From Eledone cirrhosa (lineage: Eukaryota): a DNA stretch of 64,000 nt. The stretch is from NCBI GenBank assembly GCA_964016885.1, contig OZ024760.1, forward strand, positions 27,094,001-27,158,000, in the 5' to 3' direction. Shown here one piece after another: positions 41,234 through 61,902 of the stretch (positions within the stretch are counted from its first letter, which is position 1; the number at the start of each line of letters is the position of its first letter). The position numbers and the translations under genes were made by a program. The notes beneath the pieces are model-generated. The model worked only from the letters and a program-made list of their open reading frames with translations. It searched no databases and was not told where the DNA came from.

Positions 41234-43052
41234 AAATTGGAATAAATGCTCTGAAATAGCGATATATATGTGAATATAGACATAGAATATTCGAAAATAT
41301 TCTGTATGTTTATAATAAACATTTTGAAGACCTAATCGCTATAGAATAGAATACGTCACGTATTACAATTAGATTCTCGATAAAAGCAAGGGAAGTAATC
41401 TACGCGTTTCATTCTTGTTAGAATTCATCAGGACTACATATCCAGTGCTTTTATCGAGAATGACACAGCTAGAGACTTATAGAATACTTAGCTGTGTACA
41501 GGAACTGGTTTGAAAGAGCGGTTGCCGGTCCGGCAGAAATTAGAAATTGGAATAAATGCTCTGAAATAGCGATATATATGTGAATATAGACATAGAATAT
41601 TCGAAAATATTCTGTATGTTTATAATAAACATTTTGAAGACCTAATCGCTATAGAATAGAATACGTCACGTATTACAATTAGATTCTCGATAAAAGCAAG
41701 GGAAGTAATCTACGCGTTTCATTCTTGTTAGAATTCATCAGGACTACATATCCAGTGCTTTTATCGAGAATGACACAGCTAGAGACTTATAGAATACTTA
41801 GCTGTGTACAGGAACTGGTTTGAAAGAGCGGTTGCCGGTCCGGCAGAAATTAGAAATTGGAATAAATGCTCTGAAATAGCGATATATATGTGAATATAGA
41901 CATAGAATATTCGAAAATATTCTGTATGTTTATAATAAACATTTTGAAGACCTAATCGCTATAGAATAGAATACGTCACGTATTACAATTAGATTCTCGA
42001 TAAAAGCAAGGGAAGTAATCTACGCGTTTCATTCTTGTTAGAATTCATCAGGACTACATATCCAGTGCTTTTATCGAGAATGACACAGCTAGAGACTTAT
42101 AGAATACTTAGCTGTGTACAGGAACTGGTTTGAAAGAGCGGTTGCCGGTCCGGCAGAAATTAGAAATTGGAATAAATGCTCTGAAATAGCGATATATATG
42201 TGAATATAGACATAGAATATTCGAAAATATTCTGTATGTTTATAATAAACATTTTGAAGACCTAATCGCTATAGAATAGAATACGTCACGTATTACAATT
42301 AGATTCTCGATAAAAGCAAGGGAAGTAATCTACGCGTTTCATTCTTGTTAGAATTCATCAGGACTACATATCCAGTGCTTTTATCGAGAATGACACAGCT
42401 AGAGACTTATAGAATACTTAGCTGTGTACAGGAACTGGTTTGAAAGAGCGGTTGCCGGTCCGGCAGAAATTAGAAATTGGAATAAATGCTCTGAAATAGC
42501 GATATATATGTGAATATAGACATAGAATATTCGAAAATATTCTGTATGTTTATAATAAACATTTTGAAGACCTAATCGCTATAGAATAGAATACGTCACG
42601 TATTACAATTAGATTCTCGATAAAAGCAAGGGAAGTAATCTACGCGTTTCATTCTTGTTAGAATTCATCAGGACTACATATCCAGTGCTTTTATCGAGAA
42701 TGACACAGCTAGAGACTTATAGAATACTTAGCTGTGTACAGGAACTGGTTTGAAAGAGCGGTTGCCGGTCCGGCAGAAATTAGAAATTGGAATAAATGCT
42801 CTGAAATAGCGATATATATGTGAATATAGACATAGAATATTCGAAAATATTCTGTATGTTTATAATAAACATTTTGAAGACCTAATCGCTATAGAATAGA
42901 ATACGTCACGTATTACAATTAGATTCTCGATAAAAGCAAGGGAAGTAATCTACGCGTTTCATTCTTGTTAGAATTCATCAGGACTACATATCCAGTGCTT
43001 TTATCGAGAATGACACAGCTAGAGACTTATAGAATACTTAGCTGTGTACAGG
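41234..43052 (-). mobile_element. 310-bp hammerhead-containing tandem repeat (retrozyme-like), ~5.9 units, 6 ribozymes on the minus strand
   Basis: Period 310 (41241 to 41551). Reverse-complement core TCATCAG ends at 41431, 41741, 42051, 42361, 42671 and 42981. Confidence 0.9.
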
Positions 43053-43053
43053 A

Positions 43054-57420: not shown

Positions 57421-60400
57421 GAGAATCTAATTGTAATACGTGACGTATTCTATTCTATAGCGATTAGGTCTTCAAAATGTTTATTATAAACATACAGAAT
57501 ATTTTCGAATATTCTATGTCTATATTCATATATATATCGCTATTTCAGAGCATTTATTCCAATTTCTAATTTCTGCCGGACCGGCAACCGCTCTTTCAAA
57601 CCAGTTCCTGTACACAGCTAAGTATTCTATAAGTCTCTAGCTGTGTCATTCTCGATAAAAGCACTGGATATGTAGTCCTGATGAATTCTAACAAGAATGA
57701 AACGCGTAGATTACTTCCCTTGCTTTTATCGAGAATCTAATTGTAATACGTGACGTATTCTATTCTATAGCGATTAGGTCTTCAAAATGTTTATTATAAA
57801 CATACAGAATATTTTCGAATATTCTATGTCTATATTCATATATATATCGCTATTTCAGAGCATTTATTCCAATTTCTAATTTCTGCCGGACCGGCAACCG
57901 CTCTTTCAAACCAGTTCCTGTACACAGCTAAGTATTCTATAAGTCTCTAGCTGTGTCATTCTCGATAAAAGCACTGGATATGTAGTCCTGATGAATTCTA
58001 ACAAGAATGAAACGCGTAGATTACTTCCCTTGCTTTTATCGAGAATCTAATTGTAATACGTGACGTATTCTATTCTATAGCGATTAGGTCTTCAAAATGT
58101 TTATTATAAACATACAGAATATTTTCGAATATTCTATGTCTATATTCATATATATATCGCTATTTCAGAGCATTTATTCCAATTTCTAATTTCTGCCGGA
58201 CCGGCAACCGCTCTTTCAAACCAGTTCCTGTACACAGCTAAGTATTCTATAAGTCTCTAGCTGTGTCATTCTCGATAAAAGCACTGGATATGTAGTCCTG
58301 ATGAATTCTAACAAGAATGAAACGCGTAGATTACTTCCCTTGCTTTTATCGAGAATCTAATTGTAATACGTGACGTATTCTATTCTATAGCGATTAGGTC
58401 TTCAAAATGTTTATTATAAACATACAGAATATTTTCGAATATTCTATGTCTATATTCATATATATATCGCTATTTCAGAGCATTTATTCCAATTTCTAAT
58501 TTCTGCCGGACCGGCAACCGCTCTTTCAAACCAGTTCCTGTACACAGCTAAGTATTCTATAAGTCTCTAGCTGTGTCATTCTCGATAAAAGCACTGGATA
58601 TGTAGTCCTGATGAATTCTAACAAGAATGAAACGCGTAGATTACTTCCCTTGCTTTTATCGAGAATCTAATTGTAATACGTGACGTATTCTATTCTATAG
58701 CGATTAGGTCTTCAAAATGTTTATTATAAACATACAGAATATTTTCGAATATTCTATGTCTATATTCATATATATATCGCTATTTCAGAGCATTTATTCC
58801 AATTTCTAATTTCTGCCGGACCGGCAACCGCTCTTTCAAACCAGTTCCTGTACACAGCTAAGTATTCTATAAGTCTCTAGCTGTGTCATTCTCGATAAAA
58901 GCACTGGATATGTAGTCCTGATGAATTCTAACAAGAATGAAACGCGTAGATTACTTCCCTTGCTTTTATCGAGAATCTAATTGTAATACGTGACGTATTC
59001 TATTCTATAGCGATTAGGTCTTCAAAATGTTTATTATAAACATACAGAATATTTTCGAATATTCTATGTCTATATTCATATATATATCGCTATTTCAGAG
59101 CATTTATTCCAATTTCTAATTTCTGCCGGACCGGCAACCGCTCTTTCGAACCAGTTCCTGTACACAGCTAAGTATTCTATAAGTCTCTAGCTGTGTCATT
59201 CTCGATAAAAGCACTGGATATGTAGTCCTGATGAATTCTAACAAGAATGAAACGCGTAGATTACTTCCCTTGCTTTTATCGAGAATCTAATTGTAATACG
59301 TGACGTATTCTATTCTATAGCGATTAGGTCTTCAAAATGTTTATTATAAACATACAGAATATTTTCGAATATTCTATGTCTATATTCATATATATATCGC
59401 TATTTCAGAGCATTTATTCCAATTTCTAATTTCTGCCGGACCGGCAACCGCTCTTTCAAACCAGTTCCTGTACACAGCTAAGTATTCTATAAGTCTCTAG
59501 CTGTGTCATTCTCGATAAAAGCACTGGATATGTAGTCCTGATGAATTCTAACAAGAATGAAACGCGTAGATTACTTCCCTTGCTTTTATCGAGAATCTAA
59601 TTGTAATACGTGACGTATTCTATTCTATAGCGATTAGGTCTTCAAAATGTTTATTATAAACATACAGAATATTTTCGAATATTCTATGTCTATATTCATA
59701 TATATATCGCTATTTCAGAGCATTTATTCCAATTTCTAATTTCTGCCGGACCGGCAACCGCTCTTTCAAACCAGTTCCTGTACACAGCTAAGTATTCTAT
59801 AAGTCTCTAGCTGTGTCATTCTCGATAAAAGCACTGGATATGTAGTCCTGATGAATTCTAACAAGAATGAAACGCGTAGATTACTTCCCTTGCTTTTATC
59901 GAGAATCTAATTGTAATACGTGACGTATTCTATTCTATAGCGATTAGGTCTTCAAAATGTTTATTATAAACATACAGAATATTTTCGAATATTCTATGTC
60001 TATATTCATATATATATCGCTATTTCAGAGCATTTATTCCAATTTCTAATTTCTGCCGGACCGGCAACCGCTCTTTCAAACCAGTTCCTGTACACAGCTA
60101 AGTATTCTATAAGTCTCTAGCTGTGTCATTCTCGATAAAAGCACTGGATATGTAGTCCTGATGAATTCTAACAAGAATGAAACGCGTAGATTACTTCCCT
60201 TGCTTTTATCGAGAATCTAATTGTAATACGTGACGTATTCTATTCTATAGCGATTAGGTCTTCAAAATGTTTATTATAAACATACAGAATATTTTCGAAT
60301 ATTCTATGTCTATATTCATATATATATCGCTATTTCAGAGCATTTATTCCAATTTCTAATTTCTGCCGGACCGGCAACCGCTCTTTCAAACCAGTTCCTG

Positions 60401-61902
60401 TACACAGCTAAGTATTCTATAAGTCTCTAGCTGTGTCATTCTCGATAAAAGCACTGGATATGTAGTCCTGATGAATTCTAACAAGAATGAAACGCGTAGA
60501 TTACTTCCCTTGCTTTTATCGAGAATCTAATTGTAATACGTGACGTATTCTATTCTATAGCGATTAGGTCTTCAAAATGTTTATTATAAACATACAGAAT
60601 ATTTTCGAATATTCTATGTCTATATTCATATATATATCGCTATTTCAGAGCATTTATTCCAATTTCTAATTTCTGCCGGACCGGCAACCGCTCTTTCAAA
60701 CCAGTTCCTGTACACAGCTAAGTATTCTATAAGTCTCTAGCTGTGTCATTCTCGATAAAAGCACTGGATATGTAGTCCTGATGAATTCTAACAAGAATGA
60801 AACGCGTAGATTACTTCCCTTGCTTTTATCGAGAATCTAATTGTAATACGTGACGTATTCTATTCTATAGCGATTAGGTCTTCAAAATGTCTATTATAAA
60901 CATACAGAATATTTTCGAATATTCTATGTCTATATTCATATATATATCGCTATTTCAGAGCATTTATTCCAATTTCTAATTTCTGCCGGACCGGCAACCG
61001 CTCTTTCAAACCAGTTCCTGTACACAGCTAAGTATTCTATAAGTCTCTAGCTGTGTCATTCTCGATAAAAGCACTGGATATGTAGTCCTGATGAATTCTA
61101 ACAAGAATGAAACGCGTAGATTACTTCCCTTGCTTTTATCGAGAATCTAATTGTAATACGTGACGTATTCTATTCTATAGCGATTAGGTCTTCAAAATGT
61201 TTATTATAAACATACAGAATATTTTCGAATATTCTATGTCTATATTCATATATATATCGCTATTTCAGAGCATTTATTCCAATTTCTAATTTCTGCCGGA
61301 CCGGCAACCGCTCTTTCAAACCAGTTCCTGTACACAGCTAAGTATTCTATAAGTCTCTAGCTGTGTCATTCTCGATAAAAGCACTGGATATGTAGTCCTG
61401 ATGAATTCTAACAAGAATGAAACGCGTAGATTACTTCCCTTGCTTTTATCGAGAATCTAATTGTAATACGTGACGTATTCTATTCTATAGCGATTAGGTC
61501 TTCAAAATGTTTATTATAAACATACAGAATATTTTCGAATATTCTATGTCTATATTCATATATATATCGCTATTTCAGAGCATTTATTCCAATTTCTAAT
61601 TTCTGCCGGACCGGCAACCGCTCTTTCAAACCAGTTCCTGTACACAGCTAAGTATTCTATAAGTCTCTAGCTGTGTCATTCTCGATAAAAGCACTGCATA
61701 TGTAGTCCTGATGAATTCTAACAAGAATGAAACGCGTAGATTACTTCCCTTGCTTTTATCGAGAATCTAATTGTAATACGTGACGTATTCTATTCTATAG
61801 CGATTAGGTCTTCAAAATGTTTATTATAAACATACAGAATATTTTCGAATATTCTATGTCTATATTCATATATATATCGCTATTTCAGAGCATTTATTCC
61901 AA
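57421..61902 (+). mobile_element. Second array of the 310-bp hammerhead repeat, ~14.5 units, 14 ribozymes
   Basis: Same unit; cores from 57678 to 61708 in steps of 310. Flanked by (TA)n/TAAT tracts. Confidence 0.92.

What the first reader, a model, noticed from the sequence alone, without database searches (positions are those of the whole stretch)
41234..61902. Very young 310-nt hammerhead retrozyme-like element: 30 ribozyme copies in two arrays flanking a Penelope-like element
Seen: a 310-bp non-coding unit with a complete type I hammerhead (stem I GUAGUC/GAUUAC, CUGAUGA, 5-bp stem II, GAAA, stem III ACGCGU, GUA site), nested in a perfect 16-bp helix. The unit has further hairpins (TGCCGG-A-CCGGCA; ACACAGCTA/TAGCTGTGT). 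Copies are essentially identical and both arrays lie in (TA)n. Established: minimal hammerheads with palindromic stem III cleave as dimers and mark PLE pLTRs and animal non-LTR retrozymes, whose tandem transcripts self-cleave into monomers that circularise. Inference: this is a recently active retrozyme family producing 310-nt linear or circular RNAs and mobilised by a PLE RT. The PLE between the arrays shows a candidate helper lineage, although that copy is dead. I cannot tell whether this family is already described.
Basis: partly seen in the sequence, partly recalled or inferred. Interest (0 to 1): 0.92.

Follow-up and report, generated by a model that had tools for sequence, protein, structure and literature searches.

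The report
Two-armed ribozyme retroelement with Penelope footprints
These arrays are two of well over a thousand very recent insertions of a 310-base non-coding repeat carrying a hammerhead (predicted self-cutting RNA) motif, a known kind of jumping element whose back-to-back layout suggests that a Penelope-type transposon enzyme likely copied one small RNA, probably a circle, into both ends of cut DNA.

Summary
Confirmed: 30 near-identical 310-bp units, each with a minimal type I hammerhead. The family is genome-wide (at least 11,433 hammerheads, about 1,300 of each of two fixed end junctions). Of 128 insertions parsed, 107 of 108 two-armed ones with both ends visible pair end A with end B (about 30 nt apart, in (TA)n), the Penelope-like element (PLE) 'tail' layout. 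Both arms share a haplotype in 70 of 74; variants are mostly fixed or single-copy. That favours repeated copying of one monomer (circle likely), though 3 insertions point to multimer templates. The Hydra-like PLE between the arrays shows no link; a young intact PLE family elsewhere has the same end rule (13 of 13) but no shared sequence. Cleavage and circular RNA are untested. It is a new family of known animal non-LTR retrozymes with unusually clear mechanistic footprints. This scan found the same family earlier on other DNA.

The parts
41234..43053 (-). Left arm of a two-armed insertion: 5.87 units, 6 hammerheads; outer (sense 3') end at unit position 167 (end B) joined to (TA)n
43054..46073 (+). 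Right arm of the same insertion: 9.74 units, 10 hammerheads; outer end at unit position 128 (end A) joined to (TA)n; identical haplotype to the left arm; head-to-head junction at unit positions 208/209
57421..61902 (+). Separate one-armed insertion: 14.46 units, 14 hammerheads, 131T fixed in all units, end B (position 164) into (TA)n, 5' end at unit position 23
43119..43161 (+). One type I hammerhead (stem I, CUGAUGA, stem II AUUCU/AGAAU, GAAA, palindromic ACGCGU, GUA); predicted cut between 43155 and 43156 (unit position 1 = 43156)
   Evidence: sequence
43095..43183 (+). Perfect 16-bp helix (43095-43110 with 43168-43183) enclosing the hammerhead
   Evidence: (MFE structure)
43281..43325 (+). 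The stretch between the two family-wide insertion ends: end A (unit about 126-139, merges with AUAUAU) and end B (unit 165-170); equivalent of the PLE 'tail'
   Evidence: short-read contigs of run X2 show loose (TA) ends at 43325 and 43604
53830..56400 (+). Broken Hydra-like PLE (RT with a stop in the YRDD motif at about 54505, frameshifts, GIY-YIG) with about 70 bp of inverted pLTR at 53830-53899; bystander, no similarity to the unit
35150..41233 (.). (TA)n tract, left target of the two-armed insertion; further tracts at 46074-49340, 56906-57420, 61903-62296

Best explanation
This is a very young, genome-wide family of non-coding 310-bp hammerhead repeats (an animal non-LTR retrozyme) that inserts into (TA)n as two back-to-back tandem arms, likely because a Penelope-like element's endonuclease/reverse transcriptase cuts both DNA strands and each cut end primes copying of the same RNA at one of two start sites about 30 nt apart, probably going round a ribozyme-cut, ligated monomer circle many times. 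SHOWN: unit, copy number, dispersal, youth, head-to-head layout, strict A+B end pairing, shared haplotype of both arms, fixed-or-singleton variant spectrum, microhomology at the inner joint, no scars at the cleavage site, the same end rule in an intact PLE family of the same genome. INFERRED: transcription; hammerhead cleavage (probably as a dimer through ACGCGU); circularisation by a host ligase; PLE identity of the enzyme; twin priming on one RNA; a circle rather than a self-jumped linear monomer. A minority of insertions were likely copied from uncut multimers, and a few arms later grew into satellites at DNA level.
For: Copy number: 2,528 exact hammerheads plus 8,905 with another base at 10.1; 1,292 B-junctions and 1,298 A-junctions. 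Layout: of 128 young insertions, 111 are two-armed, all head-to-head; 107 of 108 with both ends seen are A+B, none A+A or B+B; 17 are one-armed. Inverted copy plus a one-sided 30-40-bp tail is the published PLE signature (PMC8557442; PMC3846280), and a purified PLE starts RT at two sites bounding the tail, extends both strands and is predicted to be a dimer (PMC11167929). A young PLE family here (860-aa intact ORF, many copies 98.5-100% identical) shows the same rule in 13 of 13 two-armed insertions with both ends read. One template: arms share the majority haplotype in 70 of 74 (shuffle mean 9.6, max 21 of 5,000); 45 haplotypes in 128 insertions; 197 fixed, 147 singleton and 20 intermediate variants in 359 kb; singleton share 0.88 against 0.38 under gradual homogenisation, while a DNA-amplified satellite of the same unit gives 20 intermediate to 30 singleton; sample-private variants fixed across up to about 25 units. 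Inner joints show microhomology (mean 2.2 against 0.76 nt) and are spread over the unit; 1 singleton at the cleavage junction in 1,166 passes (1.9 expected). RNA level: A>G is 13 of 37 fixed but 11 of 121 singleton substitutions (p 0.0004; against T>C p 0.018); 0 of 12 fixed hammerhead variants hit the 12 core positions (p about 0.02), against 5 of 18 singletons. A sister family keeps both ends and the fold with different sequence.
Against: No cleavage assay or RNA evidence. Three insertions (L075, L099, L164) carry non-fixed variants in the same unit counted from the outer end of both arms, which a monomer circle cannot give; L068 and L167 are also mosaic. Most copies have a U.U pair at the base of stem II, and stem II then forms poorly in the fold (probability about 0.15); stem III does not form in the monomer. 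In Xenopus only 1 of 9 dimers cleaved, and for the purified PLE unprocessed RNA was the dominant substrate. An HHR-less 163-nt derivative of the sister family also forms a tandem arm. No PLE shares sequence with the unit (start-region alignment p 0.23). The only hybrid found involves the sister family, is a single case, and pairs two B-type ends. Loci were chosen mostly by end patterns on the first 232 Mb of one contig. A>G excess may reflect G.U tolerance in stems rather than editing.
Confidence: 0.7

Rival explanations
1. Same PLE-driven twin priming, but the usual template is an uncut linear multimer transcribed from homogeneous source arrays; the ribozyme is incidental to insertion.
For: Three insertions with phase-matched variants in both arms; seamless passes over the cleavage site fit an uncut multimer equally well; weak minimal hammerhead; unprocessed RNA dominant for the purified PLE; an HHR-less tandem derivative exists; a satellite of at least 100 kb could supply multimers.
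Against: It cannot by itself fix new variants across whole arrays: 22 sample-private fixed variants against 3 phase-matched cases in 307 shared units. My rough hand estimate from these counts is that 80-95% of events pass through one monomer; it depends on unknown source ages. Core positions look conserved among propagating haplotypes.
Confidence: 0.2
2. The inverted arm arises by fold-back self-priming of the first cDNA (or on an antisense template), as proposed for rotifer Penelopes, not by a second priming on the RNA.
For: The window's own joint is a perfect palindrome (208/209); shared haplotypes follow automatically; PMC3846280 proposes self-priming.
Against: Either arm can be longer (A longer in 48, B longer in 58 of 106); only 7 of 96 joints are symmetric within 6 nt (about 4 expected by my count); shared rare variants in L099 and L164 line up from the outer ends, not the centre; the second arm always stops at the other fixed site.
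Confidence: 0.06
3. An ordinary satellite amplified and moved at DNA level, or a long-read assembly artefact (fold-back reads).
For: One arm on contig C14 has become a satellite of at least 100 kb with higher-order repeats, and a 48-unit insertion shows block duplication.
Against: About 1,300 dispersed loci with fixed A and B ends; asymmetric ends, microhomology and templated inserts at joints; the C14 control has a different variant spectrum; short-read contigs of run X2 reproduce both TA junctions (that run may be the assembly's own sample).
Confidence: 0.04

Closest known systems
Animal non-LTR retrozymes (coral, mussel, axolotl: PMC7229834, passages read; vertebrates: bioRxiv 10.64898/2026.07.22.740005, parts 1-3 of 5 read)
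   Same: About 300-nt low-GC non-coding tandem units, one type I hammerhead each, thousands of copies; U.U at the base of stem II as in axolotl HHR_Amex2; PLEs proposed as helpers and circRNA as template.
   Different: In the text read, these papers describe no head-to-head two-armed insertions, fixed paired ends or one-haplotype-per-insertion pattern ('inverted' 0 hits in PMC7229834). Unlike the Xenopus families, this unit has no detectable homology to the pLTRs tested. RNA expression and cleavage are shown there, not here.
EN+ Penelope-like element insertions with inverted 5'-truncated copy and one-sided tail (PMC8557442 passages and section 11; PMC3846280 passages; PMC11167929 parts 1-2 of 4)
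   Same: Head-to-head arms, a tail at one end only, AT/(TA)n targets, 5' truncation with microhomology, minimal hammerhead.
   Different: No ORF; the repeated unit is 310 bp and is repeated a median of 8 times (up to 48) per insertion. The tail is described as optional, whereas here A+B pairing holds in 107 of 108.
Non-autonomous Chlamys elements such as MRC1 (PMC8557442, passage)
   Same: Non-autonomous PLE derivatives with multicopy head-to-tail insertions.
   Different: Those lack canonical hammerheads and resemble their autonomous partner at the 3' end; no such partner was found here.
L1 twin priming (recalled, no call)
   Same: Second nick primes on the same RNA, giving head-to-head inversion with microhomology at the joint.
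   Different: L1's second site is chosen by chance annealing and the two pieces do not overlap; here both sites are fixed and both arms run through the same unit many times.

Membership tests
Animal non-LTR retrozyme | Type I hammerhead in every repeat unit | tested here: met
   30 of 30 units; stems I and II fold; below Rfam gathering score
Animal non-LTR retrozyme | Tandem units of 150-450 bp, GC under 45-50%, non-coding, no LTRs | tested here: met
   310 bp; 106 of 310 G+C; no frame of 80 aa inside the arrays; PBS/PPT not searched separately
Animal non-LTR retrozyme | Dispersed multi-locus family | tested here: met
   1,292 and 1,298 end junctions; at least 11,433 hammerheads
Animal non-LTR retrozyme | Self-cleavage (as monomer or dimer) | not testable with these tools
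   Indirect only: 0 of 12 fixed variants in the core
Animal non-LTR retrozyme | Expressed as linear and circular monomer RNA | not testable with these tools
   Needs raw RNA reads or northern blots; none were available
Animal non-LTR retrozyme | Target-site duplication, when present, longer than 4 bp | tested here: inconclusive
   Targets are (TA)n, so a duplication cannot be read
PLE-mobilised insertion | Inverted 5'-truncated arm, head-to-head | tested here: met
   111 of 128 insertions
PLE-mobilised insertion | 30-40-bp tail at one end only | tested here: met
   Ends at about 126-139 and 165-170; A+B in 107 of 108
PLE-mobilised insertion | Sequence shared with the pLTR of an autonomous PLE | tested here: not met
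   None with the window's Hydra-like family or the young 860-aa family, nor with other PLE pieces in fetched loci; most PLE families of the genome were not examined
Autonomous PLE | RT and GIY-YIG ORF | tested here: not met
   Unit is non-coding
Hydra clade (the PLE at 53830-56400) | DKT for DKG, CxCX5C linker, no CCHH, C-terminal GIY-YIG | tested here: met
   Motifs read in family ORFs L105/L109 against the section; no tree built
Ordinary single-locus satellite | Confined to one locus, gradual homogenisation | tested here: not met
   Dispersed; singleton share 0.88 against 0.38; one secondary satellite on C14

The most novel reading that the evidence does not exclude
Each insertion is a direct genomic record of a PLE reverse-transcriptase dimer priming both ends of a double-strand cut at two fixed sites on one ribozyme-made, A-to-I-edited RNA circle and rolling round it up to dozens of times. 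That would explain the PLE inverted-repeat-plus-tail structure, show circRNA as the retrotransposition template, and, at C14, catch a satellite being born from one such arm.
Probability: 0.45. Interest if true: 0.8.

Novelty: new member of a known kind. Interest (0 to 1): 0.58.

Why it matters
The circle-as-template step of the retrozyme cycle and the PLE partnership are stated as hypotheses in the papers read (PMC7229834; bioRxiv 2026), and how PLEs form tandem and inverted structures is named as open (PMC8557442). This family supplies more than a thousand nearly unmutated products, a 310-nt substrate with two mapped start sites, and intact candidate enzymes in the same genome. So circle versus multimer, one enzyme versus a dimer, and helper identity can be tested directly, in vitro and by counting. 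It also links retrozymes to the birth of satellites.

Tried and rejected
DNA search of the genome with the unit found nothing because common words are skipped; patterns were used instead. Rfam at gathering score: 0 matches. Sequencing runs: no RNA holder listed; this says nothing on expression. Three runs with other organism labels each hold one 340-nt contig at depth 12-34; contamination, diet or RNA cannot be told apart, so it is not used. The head-to-head joint was not checked in independent reads. Helper search: no similarity of the unit to the window PLE or 30 of its relatives; profile of the shared start-site domain found no PLE; alignment with the young PLE's start region p 0.23; no hybrid of the young family with either PLE protein set among the loci parsed (L079 is only a tail-to-tail neighbour). 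I first labelled the window PLE Neptune in my notes and corrected it to Hydra-like. Pfam gave only GIY-YIG at E 0.046; the protein atlas gave unnamed eukaryotic and RVT_1-bearing clusters; PDB gave no match for the 860-aa ORF. The pattern was misplaced by one base and led to the C14 satellite by accident; one search is the intended one (7 copies at 5 loci). In one search the long-helix probabilities were printed with a wrong offset; the helix is read from the MFE string. Rows dropped before counts: L089 (duplicate of L066 beside a gap), L054 and L081 (replaced by fuller fetches), 4 older sister-family groups, L041 and L042 (no unit); variants near arm ends were trimmed. Paper searches showed no description of this family or of paired-end retrozyme insertions; the library lacks most subscription journals, Repbase and Dfam were not searched, and the preprint's supplements are closed and may list related families.
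Full report
Observation. The window holds 30 copies of one hammerhead string: 6 on the minus strand, then 10 on plus, and 14 on plus further right. The period is 310 bp. I number the unit from the base after the predicted GUA cut (window 43156). 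The left block is one head-to-head palindrome: 41234-43053 on minus (5.87 units, outer end at unit 167) and 43054-46073 on plus (9.74 units, outer end at 128), all 16 copies identical. The right block, 57421-61902, is one arm of 14.46 units with 131T in every unit and three single-copy changes. The T-rich TA flanks read the same way on both sides of the palindrome, which fits one insertion into one tract. Stems I and II and the 16-bp helix form in a circular fold; stem III does not form in the monomer, while ACGCGU pairs with a second copy at -7.5 kcal/mol. Rfam gives no gathering-level match.

Genome context. The 3.0-Gb genome holds 2,528 exact copies of the 43-nt hammerhead and 8,905 with another base, in the listed matches U, at 10.1. 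Two junction patterns of unit with (TA)n occur 1,292 times (end B, unit 164-167) and 1,298 times (end A, unit about 130-139); these are lower bounds. I did not test the host's lineage; earlier notes of the scan call it a cephalopod.

Architecture. I parsed 128 young insertions: 2 from the window and 126 from the first 232 Mb of contig C1, most chosen by an end pattern, 10 by a hammerhead pattern. 111 are two-armed and all of these head-to-head. Of 108 with both outer ends in view 107 pair A with B, one has an odd end, and none is A+A or B+B; 17 are one-armed (10 A, 7 B, one beside a gap). The 9 two-armed loci chosen by hammerhead pattern and the window's own are all A+B. Either arm can be longer (48 against 58 of 106; rho 0.27), the median insertion has 8 units and the longest 48. 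Inner joints are spread over the unit (3 of 192 at the cleavage site), show microhomology (mean 2.2 against 0.76 nt in 67 joints without insert) or short inserts (29 of 96 by the script, some of them miscalls).

Comparison with PLEs. An inverted 5'-truncated copy and a 30-40-bp tail at one end are the published PLE layout (PMC8557442, passages; PMC3846280, passages). A purified PLE cuts and extends both strands, starts at two internal RNA sites that bound the tail, and is predicted to be a dimer (PMC11167929, parts 1-2 of 4). In this genome a young PLE family with an intact 860-aa ORF (GxKF, DKG, Cys linker, CCHH; clade not tested by tree; 77 long matches, median 98.5% identity) shows the same rule in 13 of 13 two-armed insertions with both ends read, among 20 fetched stretches and 30 search loci, with a tail of about 43 nt. 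I infer that each cut target end primes at one of the two sites.

Template. Both arms carry the same majority haplotype in 70 of 74 informative insertions (shuffle mean 9.6, maximum 21). There are 45 haplotypes, 197 fixed variant-by-insertion events (22 private to one sampled insertion), 147 singletons (0.41 per kb) and 20 intermediate variants. The singleton share is 0.88 against 0.38 expected under gradual homogenisation; a satellite of the same unit on C14, at least 100 kb long and grown from an A-ended arm, gives 30 singletons and 20 intermediate variants in 144 units. Passes over the cleavage site leave no scars (1 singleton in 1,166 passes, 1.9 expected). This fits repeated copying of one monomer, most simply a covalent circle. 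Against it, L075, L099 and L164 carry non-fixed variants in the same unit counted from the outer end of both arms, against 89 unmatched calls in 307 shared units. These show that both arms start in the same unit of one RNA, but that this RNA was a multimer, or that both enzymes switched template together. The 173C variant of L099 occurs 7 times at 5 loci. My rough hand estimate is that 80-95% of events pass through one monomer; it depends on unknown source ages.

RNA-level signs. A>G on the ribozyme strand makes up 13 of 37 distinct fixed substitutions but 11 of 121 singletons (p 0.0004), and 276G recurs on several backgrounds. A-to-I editing is one reading (lead from note e1-8803865; ADAR preferences recalled); tolerance of G.U pairs is another. 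No fixed variant hits the 12 core positions (0 of 12, p about 0.02; 5 of 18 singletons do, Fisher p 0.07). An older sister family of about 320 bp (1,297 motif matches) keeps the start-site region and both ends but has a different long helix and a UUGAUAA (U3.A8) core with covarying stem II, GCAU/AUGC in 8 and GUAC/GUAC in 4 of 18 parsed.

The helper. The PLE at 53830-56400 is broken, Hydra-like by motifs, its 149 listed relatives are 79-98% identical to it in protein, and it shares nothing with the unit. One hybrid insertion joins an HHR-less 163-nt derivative of the sister family head-to-head to the 3' part of an older copy of the 860-aa family. That is a single case, with two B-type ends, and the start regions do not align significantly (p 0.23). 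The helper is unresolved; the 860-aa family is my best candidate.

Known or new. Tandem 150-450-bp type I hammerhead repeats are animal non-LTR retrozymes; circRNA templates and PLE helpers are proposed there (PMC7229834, passages; bioRxiv 10.64898/2026.07.22.740005, parts 1-3 of 5, supplements closed). Six searches showed no account of this family or of paired-end retrozyme insertions. The scan noted this family and this reading before on other DNA; my two-arm, one-template reading was written before I saw those notes. Verdict: a new member of a known kind with strong, testable footprints; cleavage, expression, circularity and helper identity remain inferred. Interest 0.58.

Noticed in passing
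L294-L306 (G000:C14:25199400 to beyond 25300000): One A-ended arm of this family has grown into a satellite of at least 100 kb (228 hammerhead motifs in the stretch fetched) with higher-order repeats and TA inserts.
   Followed up: partly
L243:6800-9030 (G000:C1:56076800-56079030): Hybrid insertion: 3.8 units of an HHR-less 163-nt derivative of the sister family joined head-to-head to the RT-EN 3' part of a PLE, (TA)n at both outer ends.
   Followed up: partly
L213-L242, L153:3118-3427, L174:3317-4120: Older sister family of about 320 bp with the same insertion ends, a U3.A8 hammerhead core and covarying stems.
   Followed up: partly
L274-L293 (e.g. G000:C4:233387300-233397200): Young intact PLE family (860 aa) with two-armed insertions that pair ends at about -14 and +27 relative to the ATG.
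   Followed up: partly
window 38700-39470: Island in (TA)n with two different hammerheads facing outwards: 38846-38890 on - (RF00163, 31.7 bits) and one at 39397 on +.
   Followed up: no
window 29350-29690, 35790-35960, 49340-49600: Related pLTR-like fragments with long-stem-II hammerhead-like motifs, also seen in L070, L074, L102.
   Followed up: partly
window 62294-62650: Copy of another, older hammerhead repeat of about 400 bp (CUGACGA core) that forms inverted tandem arrays in L047, L055, L079.
   Followed up: partly
window 47550-48400: 1.4 copies of a 607-bp tandem unit inside (TA)n, also beside the insertion in L069; ribozyme content not examined.
   Followed up: no
window 50362-53834: 3.5-kb (TTTTTTCA)-type array with a 487-bp higher-order period, directly joined to the inverted end of the Hydra-like PLE.
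   Followed up: no
L058:1139-1410: 272-bp GC-rich foreign insert at the head-to-head joint of a retrozyme insertion; origin unknown.
   Followed up: no
window 24656-26273 and 31900-35157: Non-LTR retrotransposon (AP endonuclease and RT) fragments, RTE-like by recall.
   Followed up: no
window 56570-56905 and 63020-63235: Two copies of a small element with long inverted repeats next to (TA)n.
   Followed up: no
runs X1, X3, X6: Runs under three other organism labels each hold one 340-nt contig of the unit (0-1 differences) at depth 12-34; source unexplained.
   Followed up: partly
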